A stretch of 64,000 nt of DNA from Candidatus Woesearchaeota archaeon (GCA_030651135.1 JAUSCS010000006.1:68851-132850); one strand, 5' to 3'. Counted from the stretch's first letter, positions 33,088 to 64,000 are shown. The notes: generated by a model from the letters alone, not told the origin. Numbers and translations are program-made.

Positions 33088-33816
33088 ATGATCGAAACAG
33101 AAGCATTGGAAAGCTTAGGCTTGACAAGAAACGAGGCAATAGTTTACATTACGCTATTGGATCTTGGCAAAGCCCATATTGGCAGGATTGCAGAAAAGAC
33201 AAGGATGCATAGAAGAACAATCTATGACTGCCTGGAAAGGCTTATAGACCGCGGTCTTGTAAGCTTTATAATGGAGGGAAAGGCCAGATTTTTTATTGCT
33301 GCAAACCCGCAAAAATTAAAAGAGATCATCAAGGAAAAAGAAGCAAACATTGAGGGTATTCTGCCCAAGCTATTTGAAATAGCGCAGCAGTCAAAAGCAA
33401 TAACTGATGTAACTGTTCATAAAGGCAAGGAAGGCTTAAAAAATATAATGGAAGATATAATCAAGAGCAAGCCAAAAATATGGTATTCCTTAACATCTGC
33501 TGGAAAAGCAACTGAAGTTCTTCCATTTTACCTTCCGCAATTCCATGAGAGAAGAATAAAGGAAAACATTAAGCTGGAGATAATCTTCGGCAGAAATGAG
33601 CAGGCAATTAAAAGGTCAAGAGAGCTTAAAAAACTTAAATTAACAGAAGCCAAGCTCATTGGCACAAAATATGTTATTCCGATATCAATTTGGCTCTACA
33701 ATAATAAAGTTGCCTTTATGCTTTGGGAGTCTGAAACAGGAATTTTGATCGAAAATAAAGGAACAGCAGATACGTTCAAAAATTACTTTAAAGTTCTCTG
33801 GAACGCATCAAAATAA
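33088..33816 (+). CDS. TrmB-family transcriptional regulator
   Basis: LGLTRNEAIVYITLL...HRRTIYDCLERLIDRGLV HTH, ANPQKL, HKGKEGLK. Confidence 0.88.
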   Translation: MIETEALESLGLTRNEAIVYITLLDLGKAHIGRIAEKTRMHRRTIYDCLERLIDRGLVSFIMEGKARFFIAANPQKLKEIIKEKEANIEGILPKLFEIAQQSKAITDVTVHKGKEGLKNIMEDIIKSKPKIWYSLTSAGKATEVLPFYLPQFHERRIKENIKLEIIFGRNEQAIKRSRELKKLKLTEAKLIGTKYVIPISIWLYNNKVAFMLWESETGILIENKGTADTFKNYFKVLWNASK

Positions 33817-33829
33817 AAACGCCGAGGGG
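33817..33829. repeat. Copy of the tRNA-Ser 3' end (att-like direct repeat; partner at 34407-34419)
   Basis: AAACGCCGAGGGG is identical at 33817-33829 and 34407-34419. Confidence 0.6.
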
Positions 33830-33912
33830 ATGAGAAAATTAAGCGAGTCAGCGAAGGATGTAAAAACGTGAAAATCACAATATTTTTAAGGTAGCATAAT
33901 TAAAAGATATTT

Positions 33913-34236
33913 ATGTACCGCATATTTAGAACTGATTGGTATGAAACCAAGTTTAAGAGGTTAAGCAAGCCTGAACAAGATAGGGTAGTTAAGTTCGAGC
34001 AAGAATTAAAACTTCAGCCATATGACGGTAAACCATTAGGTTACAAGTTTTTCAGAGAGAAAAAATTTAATGGTAAGAGGCTCATATTTCTGGTGTATGA
34101 ATCGCATGAGGTTGTTTTCCTGATTACAATCGCCGATAAAAAAGTTCAACAGCAAGAGATAGAAGTTATAAAAGCAAATTTGGATGTATATAACGACATG
34201 GTAGAAAATACATTGAAAAACATCAAATCTCCTTAA
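33913..34236 (+). CDS. RelE/ParE-like toxin
   Basis: 107 aa, GKPLGYKFFREKKFNGKRLIFLVYE pattern typical of the RelE fold. Confidence 0.7.
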   Translation: MYRIFRTDWYETKFKRLSKPEQDRVVKFEQELKLQPYDGKPLGYKFFREKKFNGKRLIFLVYESHEVVFLITIADKKVQQQEIEVIKANLDVYNDMVENTLKNIKSP

Positions 34237-34354
34237 TATTCCCTCTTAGAACGTCTTTTATGCCCCTAGCTATGTCTTGAAGCAAGTCTATATCGAGTTT
34301 TTCCATTTTCTTAAGTTTTTTATATTCTTGTTTGGGTATGGTTATGGTTTGCAT
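34223..34354 (-). CDS. Putative 43-aa antitoxin (not in the ORF track)
   Basis: MQTITIPKQEYKKLKKMEKLDIDLLQDIARGIKDVLRGNIKEI; resembles small archaeal RelB-type partners; convergent overlap with the toxin. Confidence 0.6.
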   Translation of the reverse strand: MQTITIPKQEYKKLKKMEKLDIDLLQDIARGIKDVLRGNIKEI

Positions 34355-34409
34355 AATCTAAGGATAAAATCATTTATATATAAATCTTTTTGTTTTCTAA
34401 TTAAAGAAA

Positions 34410-34561
34410 CGCCGAGGGGGAGATTTGAACTCCCGAGCCCTTGCGGGCACTGAATCTTTACGGTACTTGTGGCGATCATAAGCACTGTTGTACTTAGCAA
34501 TCTTCCGCCATGCTTCAGATTGAAGGCATGTCAGCGCAGTACCAGGTTGTGCCACCTCGGC
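34410..34561 (-). tRNA. tRNA-Ser(GCU) with two introns (30/31: 34502-34530; 37/38: 34456-34494)
   Basis: Acceptor GCCGAGG/CCTCGGC with G73, long variable arm GCCC-GCAA-GGGC, T-arm GGGAG-TTCAAAT-CTCCC. Removing 29 nt and 39 nt restores stem CTGAA/TTCAG with loop TT-GCT-AA. The 37/38 BHB helix is TTGC/GTAA. Confidence 0.85.
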
Positions 34562-34601
34562 ATAAGAGTCAGATATTCCCCATTGTTTATAAATATTTTT
34601 G

Positions 34602-35999
34602 TTATGTGTTGCGCTTGATTATTTTTACAACGCCTTTATAAGCATCAACTTCAATTTCATCGCCTGTCTTCAGGGCCAAGGTTATATGCTTAATTCCAAC
34701 AATGCAGGGTATTTTCATCTCTCTGCTGATTATTGCTGCATGGCTGGTTATGCCTCCTTTTTCTGTAATTACTGCTTTTGCTTTTTTTAGGAATGGAACA
34801 TAATCTGGCGTTGTATTTGATGTTACAAGTATTTCTTTATCTTTTAGTTTGTGTAGCTCTTTTACGCTCAAGATAACATTTACTGCGCCTCTTAGTTTAC
34901 CCCTATAAGCGGGCCTGCCAAAGAAAGTTGTTTGGCCAGATATGCTGAAAGGTGCAATTTCCTGTTCAAACTTACATCCATCATCTCCTGTGCGCATTTC
35001 GTAATTGCCATCGTGGTAATAGCATACAATTTTTTTCTTTCTTTTGATCAGCTCTTTCCCTGAGATTGTAATTGTATCTAACTGGATTAGCTCTTGGCCA
35101 GTCAACAGAGATATTTCTTCTTTACTCAGCCCCTTCTTCGCGCGCATCTCATCAAGAAGTTCATTTATGTAATAGCTGGCTTCTATAGCTGTTCTTTTCC
35201 TCGTATCCTGCACAAAGGTTATGAATTCTACCATGTTGGCCAGGGTTTTAAGCCGTTTATATTTACCGCCTTCTAATGAATTTAAAAATTTTTTCTTGTC
35301 ATTCATATTGTGCTCTTCAGTTAGTTTTAATGACTTGAGCTTGTCAAGGAAAAATCCCTCGCCCAAGTATTTTGTATCCACATAATTGTTGTTTAACCAA
35401 AAATAATTCTTTACATGCTCTTTGATAAGTTGCCTGAAATTTGGCTTTTTTGATATTGCTAGCAATTCTTTTTCTTCCCTCAGCAAAAAAGAGTCTCTGG
35501 GAATTGAAAGCAGGTCTATCACCTTGTTAGCTTCTTTCCCAAATAGACTTTTTACCTCTTCATCAAAATCTTTCTCAACAAATTCAATAGAAAGTTCGGG
35601 TATCATGACTATGGCGAAGTACCTGGCATATTTATCATAAATTTCTTTGAACAGCACACTCAATGATTTTATGCTTCTGTCCTTTATAGTTTCAACTTTT
35701 CTTGAAGAATTCAGCAATTGACTGCCTCGTTCTATCATGATCCTTTCAGTTTTCTTCAGAAATTCAGTATTTTTTATGCATTTAGCCAATAATTTCTGTG
35801 CGCCTTCTCTTAAATCAGGCTCTGAATAACAGGCCCTTGCAGAATACACATCAGTAATGCTGAACATCAGGTTTCTGATTTTTCTATTATAGTAGCTGTC
35901 ATGCTCTTTTAAGCAGGCGAGCAAAACGCTCACAATATACAAGGTAATTCTCTGATTTGGAACATCATGATACCAATTTTTATTTTGAAGTTTTGCCAT
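34602..35999 (-). CDS. Phospho-His swivel (PEP-utilizer mobile) domain protein with a large helical N-terminal domain
   Basis: C-terminal TTPDYVPFLKKAKAVITEKGGITSHAAIISREMKIPCIVG; no ATP-grasp or TIM-barrel domain. Confidence 0.88.
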   Translation of the reverse strand: MAKLQNKNWYHDVPNQRITLYIVSVLLACLKEHDSYYNRKIRNLMFSITDVYSARACYSEPDLREGAQKLLAKCIKNTEFLKKTERIMIERGSQLLNSSRKVETIKDRSIKSLSVLFKEIYDKYARYFAIVMIPELSIEFVEKDFDEEVKSLFGKEANKVIDLLSIPRDSFLLREEKELLAISKKPNFRQLIKEHVKNYFWLNNNYVDTKYLGEGFFLDKLKSLKLTEEHNMNDKKKFLNSLEGGKYKRLKTLANMVEFITFVQDTRKRTAIEASYYINELLDEMRAKKGLSKEEISLLTGQELIQLDTITISGKELIKRKKKIVCYYHDGNYEMRTGDDGCKFEQEIAPFSISGQTTFFGRPAYRGKLRGAVNVILSVKELHKLKDKEILVTSNTTPDYVPFLKKAKAVITEKGGITSHAAIISREMKIPCIVGIKHITLALKTGDEIEVDAYKGVVKIIKRNT

Positions 36000-36048
36000 A
36001 GTTATGATGCATTCCTCTTGATTATTTTTGCAATGCCCCTGTTTGCAT

Positions 36049-36987
36049 CTATCTTAATGCAGTCACAGGCCTTGCCTGCAATATGTAGATCTTCCCGCCT
36101 TCGATTGCCCATTCAATATCCATTGGAATGCTGTAATGCTTTTCGATCTCCTTTGTGAACTTTACCAGCCCCTTAGCTTCATTTTCATTCAGAACTTCGA
36201 TATGGCCGTGGCTTATATTCCTTTTCTCTGTTTTCCCGCTTTTGCTCCTGTAATATCCCCACTCCAGCTTCGATATGCTTTTGTTCTTAACTTTATGAGT
36301 TTTCTTGTCGATCACATAAGAGTGAGGAGTCAATGCTCCAAGCACAACAGCCTCTCCGAGGCCATAAGCTCCTTCAATGATTATCTCTTCCTTGTTCTGC
36401 GTTACAGGATTTATAGAAAATATAACCCCTGCCTTGTCTGCATTGACCATCTTCTGGACAACAACAGCTAAAAACACATTTTCGTGCGGAAAGTTATTTC
36501 TAACCCTGTAATAGATCGCCCTCGGCGTAAACAGCGAAGCAAAGCATTTCTGCACAGCTTCCAAAACCTCTTTTTCACCTTTAACATTCAAAAAAGTTTC
36601 CTGCTGGCCTGCAAAACTCGCATCAGGAAGATCCTCTGCTGTTGCCGAGCTTCTTACTGCAACAAAATCATTCATTCTTGAATATTCTTTCTTTATATCT
36701 TCGATAAGCGCCTTTGGCATGCGTGACTTCATAATAAGCCCTCTTACTTTTTCCGCTGTCTTATTCAGCTGACCTGTATTTTCAACATCAAGAGCTTTAA
36801 GCAGTTTATGGATCTTCTCATTAATTCCTGCTTCTGTTACAAACCTTTCATATGCCCTTGCCGTAATTACGAACCCGTCAGGAACAGGAAGCCCCATGCT
36901 TGCCAGCTCTCCTAAATTTGCAGCCTTGCCTCCAACAATAGGAATATCTTCTTTCCTTATATCCTTGAATAGTTTTATGTTCGGCAT
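36049..36987 (-). CDS. Stand-alone PEP synthase/PPDK N-terminal ATP-grasp domain
   Basis: VGGKAANLGEL, VAVRSSATAEDLPDASFAGQQETFLN, DIEWAI; ends at ILQARPVTALR, the domain boundary. Confidence 0.93.
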   Translation of the reverse strand: MPNIKLFKDIRKEDIPIVGGKAANLGELASMGLPVPDGFVITARAYERFVTEAGINEKIHKLLKALDVENTGQLNKTAEKVRGLIMKSRMPKALIEDIKKEYSRMNDFVAVRSSATAEDLPDASFAGQQETFLNVKGEKEVLEAVQKCFASLFTPRAIYYRVRNNFPHENVFLAVVVQKMVNADKAGVIFSINPVTQNKEEIIIEGAYGLGEAVVLGALTPHSYVIDKKTHKVKNKSISKLEWGYYRSKSGKTEKRNISHGHIEVLNENEAKGLVKFTKEIEKHYSIPMDIEWAIEGGKIYILQARPVTALR

Positions 36988-37023
36988 TAGATCCTCACTT
37001 TACTTTTTTGCCTATAAATCTTT

Positions 37024-38106
37024 CTATTTCTTTTTCAATATCCTTACAATGCCCTTATTGGCATCAATTTCAACAAGATCGCCATCTTTCAAGACCTTTG
37101 TAGCTATTTTAGTGCTCATAATGCTGGGGATTTTGAATTCTCGGGCAACAACTGCAATATGAGAAAGCGCACCTCCTTCATCTGTAATTATGGCTGCGAA
37201 TTTACTAAGCAGAGGTGCATCATCTGGTTTTGTTATGCTTGTCACTAACACATATCCGGGTTTAGCGATTTTTACTCCGTGGAACACCTTATAAACCTTC
37301 CCCACCACCTTTCCAGGATAAGCAGTTATTCCTTTTAAAACGCCCATATTGCGTTCAGCATCAATAAACTGTCTATAAACACTATTAACAATTTCCTTAT
37401 CAGCAGTAATATTGTCCTTATTTTTGTGAAAAAGATACAAATAACCTGCCTTTCTTTTCGATAATTCAGATAATTGGGTCTTAGAGATTTTTTTCTCTTT
37501 CAAAAATTTCTTAAACTCTTTCAATGTCAAATACCTTAATAAATCACCCTCAAAGATAGATTTCCCGATTTTTTCTGCGCAATTTTTAATTAACGGTTCT
37601 ATTTTAAGATATATCAAGTTGGCAACAGCATCTTTATCTTTAGCAATCAAATGGGTGAATTTTCCCAATTTTTTGGCCCTGTCTTTGTCATTTTTTACAT
37701 ATCTCATTATTGAATTATAGAACCCAATTTGGGCAAGAACCTCAGGATATATTTGGAATGTGACTTTTAAAACTTTGAAAACATCTCTTTCTTTTTTTAC
37801 TTGCTCAAAAAGATGATTGTCTTTATCGAAGAGGGCTTTTAATTTTTTATTTAAAGACCTCAACGCGCTCACTTTAATTTTTTTATTAAACAAGTTTCCT
37901 GCCTTTTCTTCATTAATTAAGAAATAAGCCATGTCACCTTTCCCTATGTTCCCCATAGTCCCATAAGAATATCCTATTTCTTTTTTAAGAATATTATTAT
38001 AGCCAAAAAATATACAGCTGGCAGTTATTAATGGAAGTTTTCTTGAGCTTGCATGGACCAACCCAGCATCTTTAATGATTTTTATATACTCCTCTGCCTT
38101 CTTCAT
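37024..38106 (-). CDS. Phospho-His swivel domain protein, paralogue 2
   Basis: C-terminal ITDEGGALSHIAVVAREFKIPSIMST...GDLVEIDANKGIV. Confidence 0.86.
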   Translation of the reverse strand: MKKAEEYIKIIKDAGLVHASSRKLPLITASCIFFGYNNILKKEIGYSYGTMGNIGKGDMAYFLINEEKAGNLFNKKIKVSALRSLNKKLKALFDKDNHLFEQVKKERDVFKVLKVTFQIYPEVLAQIGFYNSIMRYVKNDKDRAKKLGKFTHLIAKDKDAVANLIYLKIEPLIKNCAEKIGKSIFEGDLLRYLTLKEFKKFLKEKKISKTQLSELSKRKAGYLYLFHKNKDNITADKEIVNSVYRQFIDAERNMGVLKGITAYPGKVVGKVYKVFHGVKIAKPGYVLVTSITKPDDAPLLSKFAAIITDEGGALSHIAVVAREFKIPSIMSTKIATKVLKDGDLVEIDANKGIVRILKKK

Positions 38107-38219
38107 TTTTATCCTTTCCGTGATTGTTCCTCGTTCTTTATTAATTTTCTTATTTTTTCTTTAAAAATCCCATTCAAAAGAAAAACGCTTATAAATAAAA
38201 CACACATTCTCTTCTATAT

Positions 38220-38326
38220 AGCGGGGTAGGGCAGTCAGGAGACAGTAATGCCTCAATGCCCGTTGGGCTCATAACCCAGAGGTCGGAAGTTCAAAATCCG
38301 AAAGGATGAAATTCTTCCCCCCGCTA
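38220..38326 (+). tRNA. Initiator tRNA-Met(CAU) with two introns (D-loop about 21/22: 38242-38256; 59/60: 38296-38312)
   Basis: A1:U72 acceptor AGCGGGG/CCCCGCT, anticodon arm TTGGG-CTCATAA-CCCAG, perfect BHB TTCA/TGAA in the T-loop, relaxed BHB in the D-loop. Confidence 0.9.
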
Positions 38327-38824
38327 TTATTTTTTCAGTCTTTTCTGGATCTCTTCTGCAACACCCTCGATCTCGTAATCTTCATCAAGATCCAGAATTA
38401 CATCAGCATACTTTCTGTAAAGAGGCAGCCTTTCCTCAAAAAGCGATCTTAATCCTTTCCCCTTCAACCCGACTATTCCTCTTGTAAGGCGGTTCTTTAC
38501 TTTATCAACTATCTTGAAAGGGGCATTCAAAAATACAACAACGGATATCTTCTTCAGAAATTCCATAGCATTTGCAGAATAAGCCGCGCTGCCTCCTGGT
38601 GAAATAACGCAGTTATTCAGCTCACCCAAACCCAGAATTGTTTTTTCTTCTATTTTCATAAACTCTTCATCTCCAAATTCATCAATTATCTGCTGCAGCT
38701 TCAGTTTGGAATTTTTTTCAATTATTTCATCAACATCTATAAAATTGTAATTAAGCCTTTTTGCCAGCACTCTCCCCACTTTGCTCTTTCCGACTCCCGC
38801 CATTCCGATCAGTGTTATGTTCAT
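38327..38824 (-). CDS. aroK: Shikimate kinase, AroK (NMP-kinase) type
   Basis: LIGMAGVGKSKVG P-loop, FIDVD, VISPGGS, ERLPLYRKYAD. Confidence 0.85.
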   Translation of the reverse strand: MNITLIGMAGVGKSKVGRVLAKRLNYNFIDVDEIIEKNSKLKLQQIIDEFGDEEFMKIEEKTILGLGELNNCVISPGGSAAYSANAMEFLKKISVVVFLNAPFKIVDKVKNRLTRGIVGLKGKGLRSLFEERLPLYRKYADVILDLDEDYEIEGVAEEIQKRLKK

Positions 38825-38967
38825 TCCTAAGTTTTATTTTCAGGAATATTTAAATCTAATCATTATGTTATATGTTAAGTAAACTAAAATATGGCACATA
38901 GTTAGAAACTTTACTTAACACATTATGCAACAATAAACTATTTAAACACTTGCCCTTATCTTCACTT

Positions 38968-39627
38968 ATGATAATCTGCGGTGTTGAAGAGGCTGGGCGC
39001 GGCCCTGTTATAGGTCCCATGGTTATGTGCGGCTTGGCTATTGACGAAAACAAGATTCAGCAGTTAAAAGACATCGGCGTAAAGGACTCAAAGCTTCTTT
39101 CACCTCATGAAAGAAATCGCCTCTTTGATAAAATTCTAGAACTTGCAGACAAATGTGAAATCACAATAATCCCTCCTGAAGAAATAGACCGCGCAGTCGG
39201 AAGGGAAGAGGACATCAATTTAAACTGGCTTGAAGCAAGAAAAACAGCTGATATGATCAACAAGCTCCATCCCGACAAGGTTTATTTGGACTGCCCCTCT
39301 CCAAACTGCGAGAAATACGCGGAATATATCAAAAAACTTTTAAAAAATAAAAATCCCGAGATCATAGCAGAGCACAAGGCAGATGTCAACTATCCTATTG
39401 TAGGAGCAGCATCAATAATAGCGAAAGTCACAAGAGACAAGGAGATCGAAGCTTTAAAAAAGAGGTTCAAGGTTGACTTTGGCTCAGGCTACCCTGCTGA
39501 TCCTTTTACTGCTCAGTTTTTAAAGGAAAACTATGCAAAATACCCTTTTTTCAGGAAAAGCTGGTCAAACTATAAGGACGCGGCTGCGCAGAAGAACCAG
39601 AAAAAACTTTTTGAGTTCAGGAAATAA
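38968..39627 (+). CDS. rnhB: Ribonuclease HII
   Basis: EEAGRGPVIGP, KDSKLL, HKAD, AASIIAKVTRD, GSGYPADP; C-terminal PIP-like QKKLFEF. Confidence 0.93.
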   Translation: MIICGVEEAGRGPVIGPMVMCGLAIDENKIQQLKDIGVKDSKLLSPHERNRLFDKILELADKCEITIIPPEEIDRAVGREEDINLNWLEARKTADMINKLHPDKVYLDCPSPNCEKYAEYIKKLLKNKNPEIIAEHKADVNYPIVGAASIIAKVTRDKEIEALKKRFKVDFGSGYPADPFTAQFLKENYAKYPFFRKSWSNYKDAAAQKNQKKLFEFRK

Positions 39628-60808: not shown

Positions 60809-60966
60809 TGCGGAGTGCAGGACTTTCAGTTGCTCTGCAACATTCGAACCTGCGTAGGGACTGACCCAATAGGTGTCTTAATATCATTGGAAGCTGCTTC
60901 CTCAACACACCTAAGCTTGGATGATCTTTCGATCTCTATCCCGTTTGGCCACTCCGGCAACTCCGC
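60809..60966 (-). tRNA. tRNA-Leu(UAG) with three introns (30/31: 60917-60935; 37/38: 60875-60909; 59/60: 60823-60842)
   Basis: GCGGAGT/ACTCCGC-A73 and variable arm GGG/CCC. BHB helices GGAT/ATCC, CTTA/TAAG and TTCG/TGAA each have 3-nt bulges. The spliced 84-nt product has arm ATAGG-CTTAGGA-CCTAT. Confidence 0.93.
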
Positions 60967-61086
60967 ATAGTACTGATAAAAACCAACTATTATATATAAT
61001 TAACGCATTGGGGATGCTGAATTAATTGTTATTCTTGCTTAAGAAATTCCACAATAAGAATTACGTAGTTATTGCTTATTTATAAA

Positions 61087-61108
61087 GGTTTCCAATATAT
61101 TGGAAACC
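61087..61108. promoter_or_regulatory. Perfect 22-bp palindrome next to a TATA-like box
   Basis: GGTTTCCAATATATTGGAAACC followed on the minus strand by TTTATAAA. Confidence 0.55.
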
Positions 61109-61131
61109 CTTGGCTATTGTTTATAGTTCTA

Positions 61132-61248
61132 TCAAAAACCACCATTCTCAGCTATATCTGATAATGAATATTCCAATCCTCTGCCCTCTATTAATAAGTC
61201 TAAAACTCTTATTGCGGGTGAATCTTCAAATGCTTCTCTAAATGCCAT
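61132..61248 (-). pseudogene. Truncated third copy of the winged-helix regulator family (2929/57604 type)
   Basis: MAFREAFEDSPAIRVLDLLIEGRGLEYSLSDIAENGGF*; stops before the recognition helix and wing. Confidence 0.78.
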
Positions 61249-61268
61249 TTTCCCCAATGAGCCCTTAT

Positions 61269-61439
61269 CTATTTCCCAGGCTTCTTCCAGTTATACTTCC
61301 TTAACCTGGCGCTTGCTCCATAGCCGCATGAGCTGCATTTGTGCTTGCTCATGTGAAATGTCCTTTTCCCGCATCTGCGGCAGTATATCATGTTCTTCTT
61401 GCCGCTCTTCTTGCCCATTGAAGCTGTTCCCTTGACCAT
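61269..61439 (-). CDS. rpl37e: 50S ribosomal protein L37e (not in the ORF track)
   Basis: MVKGTASMGKK...CRRCGKRTFH...CSSCGYG.S.RLRKYNW; follows the Sm gene as is usual in archaea. Confidence 0.95.
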   Translation of the reverse strand: MVKGTASMGKKSGKKNMIYCRRCGKRTFHMSKHKCSSCGYGASARLRKYNWKKPGK

Positions 61440-61446
61440 TTTGACC

Positions 61447-61674
61447 TTATGCAGAACTAATCAGAATTATCGTGTCGCCTCTTACAAAGGCCGCTCCAAT
61501 CTTTCTTTTGGTTTCCCCGGCTTCTCTTTCCTCAGCCTCATCAAGAACAACGTTAATGTGGATGTCAAAAGATCGTATAATGCCAACAAGCTGCTTTCCA
61601 TTTTTCAGCTCAACTATTACTCTTTTATCGCGCCACTTGTTCAGCGCATCTAACGGCCTTGATTGCTCAATCAT
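61447..61674 (-). CDS. Sm/LSm-like RNA-binding protein
   Basis: RPLDAL, VELKNG, SFDIHINVVLDEA, FVRGDTI; GGAGG RBS; ATG 61674. Confidence 0.93.
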   Translation of the reverse strand: MIEQSRPLDALNKWRDKRVIVELKNGKQLVGIIRSFDIHINVVLDEAEEREAGETKRKIGAAFVRGDTIILISSA

Positions 61675-61750
61675 TTTTACCTCCAAAAAAACAAAATTAA
61701 TTAAAAGCATGAAATTGGCAATTGTATTTAAATCTATCGAAAACTGACTG

Positions 61751-62764
61751 TTAAATCCAAGAAAACAGCTTTGCAAGCCACTTAAGGAATGCTCTTTTCC
61801 TTGCTGCCCAAAGCAGCATATTTATTTCCAGATCAAAGATGCCGGGTATTCTTTTGCCGGTTTCCAAAAGTTCCATCAGGGTTTCCTGCCTTTTCTTCAT
61901 TTTTAAGATTTCTTCAATCCCCTTTGGCCCATAGTTTTTATCTAAAATAAGCTTTGCAGCATCTTCTGCGCTTTTCAATGCAAAATAAATCCCCTGCCCT
62001 GTAAAGCCAGAGGCAAAGCCGGCAGCATCTCCTACCAGGAATTTGTTCCCAAACCTGTATCCTTGGTAGTCGAAGTTTATAATAGCTCCTTTCAGCTTTG
62101 AGTTGTCTGCTTTAACATTGATTTTTCTGCAGAAATCATAAAAATGCTCCTTTAGGTTTTTTGGGCTGGTTGAGCCGGATCCTATTGATGTATAGCCTTT
62201 GTGTGGGAATATCCAATGGTAGCCAAGCCCATTTTCAAAATTTGTATACGCCACTAGCTCATTAAATTTCTTTTTTGTTGAATATTCTAATGTAAAATGA
62301 AGCCTTTTTGTTTTTAGGCCAAGATGTCTTCTGACAATTGAATTAGAGCCGTCTGCGCCAATAAGATATCTGTAAAAATATTTTTTATTGCCAGCTGTCA
62401 CGAAATTATCAGCCACTTTGGAAACTTGTGAATTTTTCAATATCTTTGCGCCATTTTTTAAGGCGCTTTCCGCAATAATCCTGCATAATTTCTTTTTGTC
62501 TACTGTTATGATGAGTGGTTTTTTTGTTCCTTTGAACTCATATTTTTTATTTTTATGATTCAAGTATATTTTCCTGAAGTTTCTCTCAATTATGCGTTCT
62601 GGGATCAGCCTTAAATCATATCTTAAAACTCCTGCTGCGCATGGCTTAAGGCAGAAATCGCTGTCTTTTTCCAGAACAATGACTTTCTTTTTTCCTTTTG
62701 CAAGAACTTCCGCAGCTTTCAGGCCAGCCAAGCCAGCTCCAACAATGACAGCATCGTATTTCAT
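61751..62764 (-). CDS. FAD-dependent oxidoreductase, geranylgeranyl reductase family
   Basis: IVGAGLAG, KPCAAG, GADG, YHWIFP, LVGDAAG. Confidence 0.88.
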   Translation of the reverse strand: MKYDAVIVGAGLAGLKAAEVLAKGKKKVIVLEKDSDFCLKPCAAGVLRYDLRLIPERIIERNFRKIYLNHKNKKYEFKGTKKPLIITVDKKKLCRIIAESALKNGAKILKNSQVSKVADNFVTAGNKKYFYRYLIGADGSNSIVRRHLGLKTKRLHFTLEYSTKKKFNELVAYTNFENGLGYHWIFPHKGYTSIGSGSTSPKNLKEHFYDFCRKINVKADNSKLKGAIINFDYQGYRFGNKFLVGDAAGFASGFTGQGIYFALKSAEDAAKLILDKNYGPKGIEEILKMKKRQETLMELLETGKRIPGIFDLEINMLLWAARKRAFLKWLAKLFSWI

Positions 62765-63993
62765 CTTATCTTCTTAACAATTCCCTTTTCCATATCAATC
62801 TCAACAATATCCCCGCTCTTCAGGATATCTGTTGCAATTTTTGTCCCGATTATGCAGGGAATTTTTAATTCTCTGCTTATAATTGCAGCATGTGTTGTTA
62901 TGCCGCCTTCATTTGTTATGATTGCCTTTGCCTTTTTCATCAAAGGAACAAATTCAGGCCTTGTCATCCCTGTTACAAGAATCTCCCCGTTGTTGAATGT
63001 GTCTTTGACAGGGTCAAAAACAACCCTTGCCTTGCCTTCTATAAGCTTTTCCCCATTGCCTATTGAAGCAATAAAGCCCTTTATAATGCCTTTTTTTGCT
63101 ATTTCCTCTCTTTGTTTCTTGAAGAAATCCCGAACATCTAAAGCATCCTTGCCGTATAGCATGATAGTTTTTATTTCTTCCCCTTCCAGATATGAAAAGC
63201 AAGCAATATGCTCCCGCTTGCTAATCTCGTCCTTGCTGACTAATCTGCCGCTTTCCAATATTGCCATTACTTCATCAAATAAGTAATTATATGATTCAGA
63301 TTTTTCAACATTAAACCTCTTTTCAATTTCATCAAATATCTTGTCAACTGAGAACACCAATCTTTGTATACTTTCTTTTCTGTCATCTTGGAATGTTGAA
63401 AAAAACCTGACCAAGTCAAAAAATAGCTTGGCATCCGGGTCTGGTCGGTAATTTTTATACACTGCATTTATTTCTTTTTTGGCAGTCTTGTGCTTATTCT
63501 CAAATTTGTTTATCTCATTTTTAATTGTTTCAAGGTTTTTTGCTTTAATCAGATCCGATATTAAATTTAAAAAATAACTTTCACTCAAATAAAATGCCTT
63601 AAGAAAGCTATTCTGAATCCAAAAATAATTTTTTGCATGCTCCTGGAGTTTTTTAAAGAAATGGGGAAATTTTTTAATTTCTTCAATGGAATTGCTTATA
63701 ACTGCTTTCTTTAAATTTTCATTTATGAAAACAGCCTTGGCAAACTCCAAAAGAGCTATTTTTTCCTTTTCCAGAAAGCTTAATTTTTCAGGAGTGCTTA
63801 ATATTCTGATCACTTCAGGCGCATCCTCTTTTTTTACTGCAGGCAATAGCTTTAAATAATCCTGCTCTTCCAGCAGGTCCATTCCTTCCATAATCAAGGA
63901 ATAGCCGTATTGCCTTTTCATCAAAGAAAAAATCCTGGAAAACAGGTTTTTTAGCTGTGTATTTGTAAAATTTTGTATGCTCTTGTCTCTCAT
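62761..63993 (-). CDS. Phospho-His swivel domain protein, paralogue 3 (5' end may lie beyond the window)
   Basis: C-terminal TGMTRPEFVPLMKKAKAIITNEGGITTHAAIISRELKIPCIIG; reading frame is open to the window edge. Confidence 0.85.
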   Translation of the reverse strand: MRDKSIQNFTNTQLKNLFSRIFSLMKRQYGYSLIMEGMDLLEEQDYLKLLPAVKKEDAPEVIRILSTPEKLSFLEKEKIALLEFAKAVFINENLKKAVISNSIEEIKKFPHFFKKLQEHAKNYFWIQNSFLKAFYLSESYFLNLISDLIKAKNLETIKNEINKFENKHKTAKKEINAVYKNYRPDPDAKLFFDLVRFFSTFQDDRKESIQRLVFSVDKIFDEIEKRFNVEKSESYNYLFDEVMAILESGRLVSKDEISKREHIACFSYLEGEEIKTIMLYGKDALDVRDFFKKQREEIAKKGIIKGFIASIGNGEKLIEGKARVVFDPVKDTFNNGEILVTGMTRPEFVPLMKKAKAIITNEGGITTHAAIISRELKIPCIIGTKIATDILKSGDIVEIDMEKGIVKKIR

Positions 63994-64000
63994 TATTTTA

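What the first reader, a model, noticed from the sequence alone, without database searches (positions are those of the whole stretch)
34602..38106. Split, modular dikinase: one stand-alone ATP-grasp gene plus several phospho-His carrier proteins with variable N-termini
Seen in the sequence: a co-oriented three-gene cluster, with a 312-aa protein consisting only of the PEP synthase/PPDK nucleotide-binding domain (ending exactly at LQARPVT) flanked by two genes. Each flanking gene fuses a divergent 250-350-aa helical region to a C-terminal swivel domain that keeps the catalytic His (GGITSHAA, GGALSHIA). A third such gene lies at 62761-63993 (GGITTHAA). None has the pyruvate/PEP TIM barrel. Established knowledge: rifampin phosphotransferase has the order ATP-grasp, substrate domain, His domain, whereas PEP synthase needs the barrel. 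Inference: this is an RPH-like architecture cut in two, so one ATP-grasp donor could charge many interchangeable acceptor/His proteins, each with its own substrate. That would be a small-molecule or antibiotic kinase repertoire, or a phosphorelay. The Thr before the His, which regulatory kinases target in PPDK/PPS, is Leu in one paralogue.
Basis: partly seen in the sequence, partly recalled or inferred. Interest (0 to 1): 0.82.

Follow-up and report, generated by a model that had tools for sequence, protein, structure and literature searches.

The report
Split RPH-type dikinase, many acceptor subunits
A tiny symbiotic archaeon (Woesearchaeota) encodes a rifampin-phosphotransferase-like kinase in separate pieces: one ATP-binding subunit and at least five different phosphate-carrying, substrate-binding subunits. 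Split kinases of this type are already known, but arrays of many acceptors around one ATP subunit have not been described and their substrates are unknown.

Summary
On the minus strand lie HisB (37024-38106, 360 aa), a 312-aa protein that is only a PPDK_N ATP-grasp domain (36049-36987), and HisA (34602-35999, 465 aa). A third paralogue, HisC, starts at 62761. None has the PEP/pyruvate barrel.

Two corrections:
- HisC is cut by the window end. The full protein is 515 aa.
- Just beyond the window, two more paralogues and a phosphotransacetylase sit in the same translationally coupled operon.

Profile searches and high-confidence AlphaFold models place the N-terminal regions with the rifampin-binding domain of rifampin phosphotransferase (RPH). 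A related archaeon encodes ATP-grasp plus a HisA orthologue as one 807-aa chain.

The split itself is not new. Two-component RPH homologues PpsAB, CreHI and HpeHI are characterised. What differs here:
- one ATP-grasp gene sits with 2-7 divergent acceptor genes in DPANN archaea and CPR bacteria;
- the substrate domains are smaller;
- phosphatases, TrmB regulators and Pta recur nearby;
- acceptor cassettes are gained and lost, and HisB looks exchanged between CPR and DPANN.

Substrates are unknown. Verdict: a new variant of a known kind, of moderate interest.

The parts
37024..38106 (-). HisB: 360-aa acceptor subunit. A compact RPH-type substrate domain (about residues 1-250) is followed by a swivel phospho-His domain (H316, motif GGALSH).
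   Evidence: PF00391 at residues 282-352. AF2 pLDDT 93.9. Best Foldseek hit is RPH-Lm 5fbu, E 2.5e-11. It is 60-67% identical to roughly 360-aa Patescibacteria proteins.
36049..36987 (-). Grasp: stand-alone 312-aa ATP-grasp (PPDK_N) nucleotide-binding subunit.
   Evidence: PF01326 at residues 16-310, E 5e-110. K21, R112 and T131 are invariant in the family; I match them by position to RPH K22, R117 and T136. About 100 of the best 120 homologues are 306-345-aa proteins with PF01326 only, mostly Woesearchaeota or Nanoarchaeota. dN/dS is 0.06.
36002..36052 (-). Out-of-frame relic of the 3' end of a swivel-domain gene (IDANRGIAKIIKRNAS*). It overlaps the Grasp stop codon and fills the Grasp-HisA spacer.
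   Evidence: tblastn E 0.011. Frame translation. It matches the 3' end of the 363-aa His gene that lies between Grasp and HisA in sister strain L001.
34602..35999 (-). HisA: 465-aa acceptor subunit. An RPH-type substrate domain (about residues 1-360, with conserved D265/R267/K268) is followed by a swivel phospho-His domain (H420, motif GGITSH).
   Evidence: PF00391 at residues 386-456. The family profile aligns positions 151-465 to RPH 521-878. AF2 pLDDT 92.2. Best Foldseek hit is RPH-Lm 5fbt, E 4e-14, TMq 0.54. 54% identical to the C-terminal 470 aa of fused P0123.
62761..64000 (-). HisC: third acceptor paralogue, cut by the window end. The full protein is 515 aa (motif GGITTH). It is the last of three translationally coupled His genes that follow a Pta gene beyond the window.
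   Evidence: Reading frame open to base 63999. L089 is 100% identical to window 60940-64000 and shows Pta332, His469, His494, HisC515 and the GGR-like gene with 4-nt overlaps or gaps.
61751..62764 (-). Geranylgeranyl-reductase-family FAD protein (337 aa). Its start codon overlaps the HisC stop by 4 nt.
   Evidence: PF01494. TIGR02032 GG-red-SF 131 bits, below the 158.8 cut-off. Overlap seen.
33088..33816 (+). TrmB-family regulator, convergent with HisA. A recurrent neighbour of these clusters and a possible regulator.
   Evidence: PF01978. TrmB genes also lie by the clusters in L001, L084, L086, L088 and L170.

Best explanation
This is a two-component (split) member of the rifampin-phosphotransferase-type small-molecule dikinases, built as a hub with several spokes.

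Proposed mechanism:
1. The 312-aa ATP-grasp protein binds Mg-ATP.
2. The C-terminal swivel domain of an acceptor protein docks on it.
3. The conserved His (H420 in HisA, H316 in HisB) takes the beta-phosphate, releasing AMP and Pi.
4. The swivel domain returns to its own N-terminal RPH-like substrate domain and passes the phosphoryl group to a bound small molecule.

The genome encodes at least five acceptor proteins with very different substrate domains: HisA and HisB beside the ATP-grasp gene, and His469, His494 and HisC 25 kb away. Only one ATP-grasp gene was seen. The same ATP-grasp subunit therefore most likely charges all of them, each with its own substrate.

Shown here:
- domain content;
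- homology and fold of each part;
- existence of fused equivalents;
- purifying selection;
- recurrence of one-grasp, many-acceptor clusters in DPANN and CPR.

Inferred, not shown: the phosphotransfer itself, sharing of the ATP-grasp subunit, and the small-molecule nature of the substrates.

Substrates are unknown. Neighbours hint at phospho-metabolites that are later dephosphorylated. For the distal operon they hint at acyl or isoprenoid-lipid chemistry. These neighbours are HAD, His_Phos_1 and LMWPc phosphatases, TrmB regulators, Pta, a double LbH acetyltransferase, an alpha/beta-hydrolase-like protein and a GGR-family flavoprotein.
For: Domain content.

Homology of the substrate domain to RPH:
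- by profile;
- by predicted structure.

Phosphotransfer site: a conserved QDxRK helix in the HisA family (D265 in 49, R267 in 53, K268 in 47 of 56 sequences) aligns on the RPH R666/E667/K670 helix (residue roles from PMC4844700). The T/SxxGGxxxH motif of two-component dikinases (PMC12167813) is present in all five paralogues.

Fusions that link the parts:
- P0123, Grasp plus a HisA orthologue;
- HAD-Grasp and Grasp-PLD fusions.

Clusters with one Grasp and several His genes:
- L001: 4
- L083: 7
- L084: 5
- L074, a CPR bacterium: 5
- L087: 2
- L088: 2

In L083, orthologues of the distal-cluster genes (His469 58%, His494 36%, LbH 46%, U313 32%) lie in one array with the only Grasp gene.

Among this genome's five paralogues, swivel domains are 45-64% identical and N-domains about 25%.

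A search with the HisA N-domain alone found 280 representatives. Of the best 150, 144 are 600 aa or shorter, that is, lacking a Grasp domain.

dN/dS is 0.06-0.33.

Experimental precedent: HpeHI, PpsAB and CreHI need both components, and the conserved His is essential in HpeH.
Against: - There is no biochemical evidence for this system.
- The whole genome could not be searched. A second ATP-grasp gene, a full PEP synthase or a swivel-plus-barrel protein elsewhere cannot be excluded.
- Grasp and the swivel domains score higher against PEP synthase than against RPH or HpeI.
- In a domain tree, three genuine DPANN PEP synthases nest inside the stand-alone Grasp clade.
- The Grasp domain of fused P0123 is only 39% identical to the window's Grasp, so the fusion is not a simple uncut version.
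- HisB lacks the QDxRK helix. It aligns to RPH by sequence only over its last 170 residues or so.
- Some Grasp genes have no His gene within 10 kb (L086), and some His genes have no Grasp within 10 kb (L085).
Confidence: 0.7

Rival explanations
1. Split ordinary PEP synthase. The ATP-grasp protein works with a swivel-plus-barrel or stand-alone barrel protein encoded elsewhere to make PEP from pyruvate. The adjacent His proteins are side players.
For: Grasp scores best against PEP synthase models: NF005057 389 bits against RPH 280 bits, and 8a8e 268 bits against RPH 210 bits. Swivel domains also score best against archaeal PEP synthases. True DPANN PEP synthases (L003, L005, L119) nest within the stand-alone Grasp clade. 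In L084 a malic enzyme gene directly follows Grasp. One unrelated locus, L130, shows Grasp followed by a swivel-plus-barrel ORF. The genome could not be searched.
Against: No barrel was found in the window, in the 8.7 kb beyond it, or in any DPANN/CPR split cluster. The adjacent partners carry RPH-type substrate domains, not barrels. The fused relative P0123 has no barrel. This reading does not explain 2-7 divergent acceptor genes per Grasp. It could hold in addition to the main explanation.
Confidence: 0.07
2. Regulatory phospho-His kinases or a phosphorelay. The His proteins, charged by Grasp, phosphorylate proteins such as enzymes or regulators rather than metabolites. The precedent is the PPDK-derived kinase VadK of Mycobacterium tuberculosis.
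For: VadK is an ATP-grasp plus swivel protein without a barrel that acts as a regulator (PMC13400623). TrmB regulators and three kinds of phosphatase recur next to the clusters. Free-standing 100-aa swivel proteins exist beside a HAD-Grasp fusion.
Against: Each acceptor keeps a large, well-folded RPH-like ligand-binding domain. The HisA family also keeps the phosphotransfer helix. All characterised proteins with this domain pair act on small molecules: RPH, PigC/HapC, HpeH, PpsA, CreH.
Confidence: 0.1
3. Decaying remnant. The window's cluster is a degraded version of a larger array and is no longer functional.
For: Compared with sister strain L001, the window lacks two His genes and a HAD gene. 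It keeps a 3'-end relic of one of them.
Against: The three remaining ORFs are intact, with all catalytic motifs and dN/dS of 0.06-0.33. Both the short and the long forms occur in groundwater metagenomes. Gain and loss of cassettes is seen across the whole family.
Confidence: 0.05

Closest known systems
Two-component small-molecule dikinases HpeHI, PpsAB (phenylphosphate synthase) and CreHI (PMC12167813)
   Same: A separate ATP-grasp subunit homologous to the RPH and PEP synthase N-domain. A second subunit with an RPH-type substrate domain followed by a C-terminal swivel domain carrying the T/SxxGGxxxH motif. No barrel. The two genes are adjacent.
   Different: The known systems pair one acceptor of about 70 kDa (618-640 aa) with one ATP-grasp of about 40 kDa. 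They occur in aromatic-catabolic operons of free-living bacteria. Here the acceptors are 360-515 aa and there are 2-7 per ATP-grasp gene. The hosts are DPANN archaea and CPR bacteria. No carboxylase or aromatic pathway genes lie nearby. In the Grasp-domain tree, PpsB-like subunits (L055, L143) fall in a different clade.
Rifampin phosphotransferase RPH-Lm (PDB 5FBS/5FBT/5FBU, 5HV1; PMC4844700)
   Same: Best structural match for both acceptor models. Same domain order, so that Grasp plus HisA corresponds to one RPH chain. HisA has an acidic/basic helix aligned on RPH R666/E667/K670.
   Different: RPH is a single 867-aa chain with a rifampin-binding domain of about 450 aa. Sequence identity here is only 14-18%. 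NCBIfam RPH models score far below their cut-offs (58-280 bits against 999). Nothing points to rifamycins as substrate.
PEP synthase (PpsA, pyruvate, water dikinase)
   Same: Closest sequence relatives of the ATP-grasp and swivel domains. Grasp is 45-50% identical to the PEP synthase N-domain. The dikinase chemistry is expected to be the same.
   Different: There is no PEP/pyruvate TIM barrel. The swivel domain is C-terminal and preceded by an RPH-type domain. The genes are separate.
Prodigiosin ligases PigC/HapC and other single-chain RPH-like enzymes (NCBIfam NF052631)
   Same: Same three modules. They show that the family also activates non-antibiotic hydrophobic substrates by phosphorylation.
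   Different: They are single chains of about 880 aa. Scores here are far below the cut-off (55-253 bits against 1300).

Membership tests
Two-component RPH-type small-molecule dikinases (PpsAB/CreHI/HpeHI) | ATP-grasp (PPDK_N) domain on its own polypeptide, without swivel or barrel | tested here: met
   Grasp is 312 aa with PF01326 only. The stand-alone form is conserved in about 100 of the best 120 homologues.
Two-component RPH-type small-molecule dikinases (PpsAB/CreHI/HpeHI) | Second polypeptide made of an RPH-type substrate-binding domain followed by a C-terminal swivel domain | tested here: met
   The HisA-family profile aligns to RPH 521-878. Foldseek top hits for both the HisA and HisB models are RPH-Lm.
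Two-component RPH-type small-molecule dikinases (PpsAB/CreHI/HpeHI) | Swivel motif T/SxxGGxxxH with the catalytic His | tested here: met
   TEKGGITSH, TDEGGALSH, TNEGGITTH, TDEGGITCH and TDEGGVTCH. The motif is as defined in PMC12167813.
Two-component RPH-type small-molecule dikinases (PpsAB/CreHI/HpeHI) | Both components required; ATP converted to AMP + Pi with a phospho-His intermediate | not testable with these tools
   Requires enzyme assays.
Two-component RPH-type small-molecule dikinases (PpsAB/CreHI/HpeHI) | Phenolic substrate and aromatic-catabolic gene context (carboxylase, phosphatase) | tested here: not met
   Neighbours are TrmB, an SKI-family kinase, RNase HII, SMC, Pta, an LbH acetyltransferase, a GGR-like protein and HAD. 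There are no carboxylase or aromatic pathway genes. This is a feature of the known members, not of the architecture.
Rifampin phosphotransferase (RPH) | Single chain: ATP-grasp, rifampin-binding domain, swivel | tested here: not met
   Three separate ORFs with 36-nt and 49-nt spacers. The split is conserved in the sister strain, where a whole extra gene lies between Grasp and HisA.
Rifampin phosphotransferase (RPH) | Equivalog-level sequence match (NF041857 cut-off 999 bits) | tested here: not met
   280 bits (Grasp) and 58-69 bits (His proteins).
Rifampin phosphotransferase (RPH) | Phosphotransfer-site residues R666/E667/K670 | tested here: inconclusive
   The HisA family has conserved D265/R267/K268 on the aligned helix. 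D aligns with E667 and K with K670, but the Arg is shifted by three positions. No equivalent was identified in HisB.
PEP synthase (pyruvate, water dikinase) | C-terminal PEP/pyruvate-binding TIM barrel (PF02896) | tested here: not met
   Absent from all cluster proteins. Also absent, by tblastn and HMM, from the window, L089 and the related split clusters. A genome-wide check was not possible.
PEP synthase (pyruvate, water dikinase) | TIGR01418 / NF005057 score above cut-off (739.75 / 598 bits) | tested here: not met
   Grasp scores 380 / 389 bits. The window's three His proteins score 76-106 / 83-118 bits.
VadK-type PPDK-derived regulatory kinase | ATP-grasp and swivel on one chain without any substrate domain | tested here: not met
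   Grasp and swivel are on different chains, and every swivel follows a 250-400-aa RPH-like domain.

The most novel reading that the evidence does not exclude
DPANN archaea and CPR bacteria may run a hub-and-spoke dikinase. A single ATP-grasp subunit would charge a changeable set of 2-7 or more acceptor subunits. Acceptor cassettes appear to be gained and lost by recombination at the conserved swivel 3' ends, and to be exchanged between the two domains of life (HisB is 60-67% identical to Patescibacteria proteins). The repertoire would phosphorylate metabolites scavenged from hosts, using the strong ATP-to-AMP driving force. One operon (Pta, three acceptors, GGR-family flavoprotein, next to a double LbH acetyltransferase and an esterase-like protein) could act on acyl or isoprenoid-glycerol lipids that these organisms cannot make themselves.
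Probability: 0.3. Interest if true: 0.78.

Novelty: new variant of a known kind. Interest (0 to 1): 0.55.

Why it matters
DPANN archaea and CPR bacteria have very small genomes, yet they keep, duplicate and exchange these genes. Up to seven acceptor genes can sit beside one ATP-grasp gene. That suggests an important but unannotated part of their metabolism, and databases mostly label these proteins 'PEP synthase' or 'hypothetical'.

If one ATP-binding subunit does serve many substrate-specific subunits, this would be a natural modular kinase platform. It could also give a direct handle on which host metabolites these symbionts take up and trap.

There is a practical point too. Hits to PPDK_N or PEP-utilizers alone should not be counted as gluconeogenic PEP synthase in metabolic reconstructions of these lineages.

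Tried and rejected
2. The genome-contig scan with a Grasp alignment and the metagenome-contig scan with the Grasp protein were swamped by full-length PEP synthases.
3. Search for a barrel: tblastn and an HMM built from the C-termini of PEP synthases found nothing in the window or the split clusters. The exception is L130, an unrelated split or frameshifted PEP synthase.
4. Anti-phage defence reading: no PADLOC hit for any of six proteins. Rejected.
5. 'Simple fission of one RPH-like gene' is rejected as too simple. The Grasp domain of fused P0123 is only 39% identical and sits in another clade, while its acceptor part is 54% identical to HisA. The modules have separate histories.
6. Assembly artefact at the deletion junctions is judged unlikely. 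An independent Logan assembly of run X1 spans 34500-38200 without a difference, but X1 may be the window's source sample. Runs X4 and X6 hold the longer sister form.
7. Pfam and NCBIfam gave nothing for several conserved neighbours: U313, L083-274 and L087-244.
8. ARAGORN found no tRNA in 33500-39000. I did not follow up the intron-bearing tRNAs that other first-reader notes report there.
9. Literature searches found no description of these multi-acceptor arrays in DPANN or CPR.
10. Complex prediction for Grasp with each partner was not possible.


Full report
**What is there**

The minus strand of the window carries three close-packed genes:
- HisB: 37024-38106, 360 aa.
- Grasp: 36049-36987, 312 aa, 36 nt downstream of HisB.
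- HisA: 34602-35999, 465 aa, 49 nt downstream of Grasp.

Pfam finds only PF01326 (PPDK_N, residues 16-310, E 5e-110) in Grasp. It finds only PF00391 (the mobile phospho-His domain) at the C-terminus of HisA, HisB and the distal HisC (62761-63993). No protein has PF02896.

The catalytic motifs are ITEKGGITSH (HisA), ITDEGGALSH (HisB) and ITNEGGITTH (HisC). The Leu two residues before the His in HisB is conserved across its family.

The organism is a Woesearchaeote (DPANN). The nearest homologues are annotated as such, and the window's contig is 731,608 bp.

**Corrections and extension**

HisC runs off the window. Its frame is still open at base 63999, and homologues align from about residue 100 onward.

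I looked up the neighbouring GGR-like protein. This returned a Logan contig (L089) that is 100% identical to window 60940-64000. It shows:
- full-length HisC of 515 aa;
- upstream of HisC, His494, His469 and a phosphotransacetylase (332 aa; TIGR00651 259 bits, below its 311-bit cut-off). All are joined by 4-nt overlaps or gaps, down to the GGR-family flavoprotein;
- further upstream, a 313-aa protein with a GHSSG motif and no family hit, and a double LbH acetyltransferase.

This genome therefore has at least five acceptor paralogues in two clusters 25 kb apart, and one ATP-grasp gene in the roughly 73 kb I could read.

**What the N-terminal regions are**

- NCBIfam alignments of the His proteins extend upstream of the swivel into the C-terminal part of RPH, PigC and PRK06241 models, and of PRK08296.
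- A profile of 56 HisA/HisC-family proteins aligns positions 151-465 to RPH-Lm residues 521-878 (E 2e-36). A profile of 52 HisB-family proteins aligns 189-360 to RPH 699-866.
- AlphaFold2 models are confident (pLDDT 92.2 and 93.9, pTM 0.88 and 0.90).
- By Foldseek, the six best PDB matches of each model are the six RPH-Lm entries. For HisA: E 4e-14, TMq 0.50-0.55 over about 550 columns. For HisB: E 2.5e-11. Other hits cover only the swivel domain.
- In the HisA family, the conserved residues D265, R267 and K268 lie on the helix that aligns with RPH R666/E667/K670. Those RPH residues hold the phosphate during transfer.

**Evidence that the pieces work together**

A Nanoarchaeota protein of 807 aa (P0123) is a Grasp domain followed by a 54%-identical HisA orthologue. 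After ...SRPITTLEK and a 24-residue linker it continues NWYHDVPNQRI, which is the N-terminus of HisA. It has no barrel.

Other fusions join Grasp to a HAD phosphatase and to a PLD-like domain.

All three window genes are under purifying selection against the sister strain: dN/dS is 0.06, 0.13 and 0.33.

**One grasp, many acceptors**

The sister strain (L001, 88-93% nucleotide identity) has HisB, His457, HAD, Grasp, His363, HisA and TrmB in that order. Other clusters are listed below.

| Locus | Organism | His genes per Grasp gene | Other genes in the cluster |
|---|---|---|---|
| L083 | Woesearchaeote | 7 | HAD, LbH, U313-like |
| L084 | Woesearchaeote | 5 | Pta, LMWPc, malic enzyme |
| L074 | Buchananbacteria (CPR) | 5 | - |
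| L087 | not named | 2 | HAD |
| L088 | Woesearchaeote | 2 | two HAD, His_Phos_1, TrmB, PfkB |

In L083, orthologues of the window genome's distal genes sit in the same array as the only Grasp gene. They are His469 (58%), His494 (36%), LbH (46%) and U313 (32%). This ties the distal operon to Grasp.

Within this genome the swivel domains are 45-64% identical, while the N-domains are about 25%. That is what one would expect if all acceptors dock on one partner but bind different ligands.

A full-library search with the HisA N-domain alone gave 280 representatives. Of the best 150, 144 are 600 aa or shorter. For this subfamily the Grasp-less form is the rule.

**Cluster dynamics**

Compared with L001, the window lacks L001:1339-3486 (His457 and HAD) and L001:4473-5719 (His363). 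The second deletion left the last codons of His363 as an out-of-frame relic (IDANRGIAKIIKRNAS*) that overlaps the Grasp stop codon. L001 has a similar relic (IDANKGIVRKIK*) after its own Grasp stop. The window's HisB 3' end resembles that of His457. The conserved swivel 3' ends thus seem to act as recombination sites.

Both forms exist in groundwater metagenomes. Logan's assembly of run X1 spans 34500-38200 with no difference, although X1 may be the window's source sample. Runs X4 and X6 hold the longer form.

HisB is 60-67% identical to roughly 360-aa Patescibacteria proteins. Apart from the 90% sister-strain copy, the next archaeal hit named in the list is 37% identical. This points to transfer between CPR and DPANN.

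**Comparison with what is known**

Split RPH homologues are established. PpsAB (phenol), CreHI (4-cresol) and HpeHI (hydroxyphenylethanones) need both components. HpeI is an ATP-grasp, and HpeH is a rifampin-binding-like domain plus swivel. The conserved His of HpeH is essential (PMC12167813).

The window's system meets the architectural criteria of that subfamily. It differs in:
- acceptor size (360-515 aa against 618-640 aa);
- stoichiometry;
- host lineage;
- gene context.

It is not RPH itself: it is split, and its scores are far below the equivalog cut-offs. It is not PEP synthase, because it has no barrel.

**Caveats**

- Grasp and the swivels are closer in sequence to PEP synthases than to RPH or HpeI.
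- In a FastTree of 151 Grasp domains, three true DPANN PEP synthases nest within the stand-alone clade. P0123-type fusions fall elsewhere, together with the CPR stand-alone Grasp. So the modules have been shuffled, and the same Grasp might also serve a barrel protein encoded elsewhere.
I did not verify it.

**Function**

I commit to a dikinase mechanism (ATP to AMP + Pi through phospho-His) with small-molecule acceptors, at confidence 0.7.

The substrates are unknown. Recurrent phosphatases suggest phosphorylated intermediates that are later dephosphorylated. TrmB and PfkB suggest sugar-related control. The Pta, LbH acetyltransferase, esterase-like and GGR-like genes around the distal operon suggest acyl or isoprenoid-lipid chemistry. 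These are leads only.

Rival readings:
- regulatory protein kinase, on the VadK precedent: 0.10;
- split PEP synthase: 0.07;
- decaying remnant: 0.05.

**Verdict**

It belongs to a known kind, of which this is a new variant: multi-acceptor arrays in DPANN and CPR. Interest 0.55.

Noticed in passing
beyond window end; L089:2459-10004 (L089:8765-11825 = window 64000-60940): A second, translationally coupled operon lies just beyond the window: Pta (332 aa), His469, His494, HisC515 and a GGR-like flavoprotein. It is preceded by a double LbH acetyltransferase (367 aa) and a 313-aa GHSSG-motif protein with no family hit. The best NCBIfam hit of the acetyltransferase is heptaprenylglyceryl-phosphate O-acetyltransferase, below the cut-off. 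The LbH + 313-aa pair recurs in L083.
   Followed up: partly
window 37024-38106: HisB is 60-67% identical to roughly 360-aa proteins of Patescibacteria (for example Kuenenbacteria). The next named archaeal homologue outside the sister strain is 37% identical. This looks like gene transfer between CPR bacteria and DPANN archaea.
   Followed up: partly
window 36002-36052 and 37033-37124; L001:4441-4475: Relics and chimeric 3' ends of swivel genes mark the junctions where the window lacks two His genes and a HAD gene that the sister strain has. The conserved 3' ends appear to serve as recombination sites for cassette gain and loss.
   Followed up: yes
window 38327-38824: The SKI-family P-loop kinase next to the cluster scores best against the Desulfovibrio-type homoserine kinase model (NF040667, 149 bits, cut-off 197), not against shikimate kinase models.
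   Followed up: no
window 33830-34406: About 577 bp between TrmB and the region downstream of HisA are absent from the sister strain L001 (junction at L001:7352-7364). Another first-reader note places a RelE-like cassette here.
   Followed up: no
L003, L005, L119 versus stand-alone Grasp proteins (tree): Genuine barrel-containing PEP synthases of DPANN archaea nest inside the clade of stand-alone Grasp proteins. Barrel-less Grasp+swivel proteins of 450-530 aa cluster with them. This suggests repeated domain shuffling between PEP synthase and the split kinases.
   Followed up: partly
L171:1404-3790 and L170:912-2417: Further modular forms exist. One is a HAD-Grasp fusion next to a free-standing 100-aa swivel protein and a metallo-beta-lactamase-fold protein. 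Another is a Grasp-PLD-like fusion near a TrmB gene.
   Followed up: no
L084:10942-12096 and L085:8094-9954: In one Woesearchaeote a malic enzyme gene overlaps the end of the Grasp gene. In a Patescibacteria genome the HisB orthologue directly follows PduL-type phosphotransacylase and acetate kinase genes, with pyruvate:ferredoxin oxidoreductase nearby. This may link the system to pyruvate or acetyl-phosphate metabolism.
   Followed up: no
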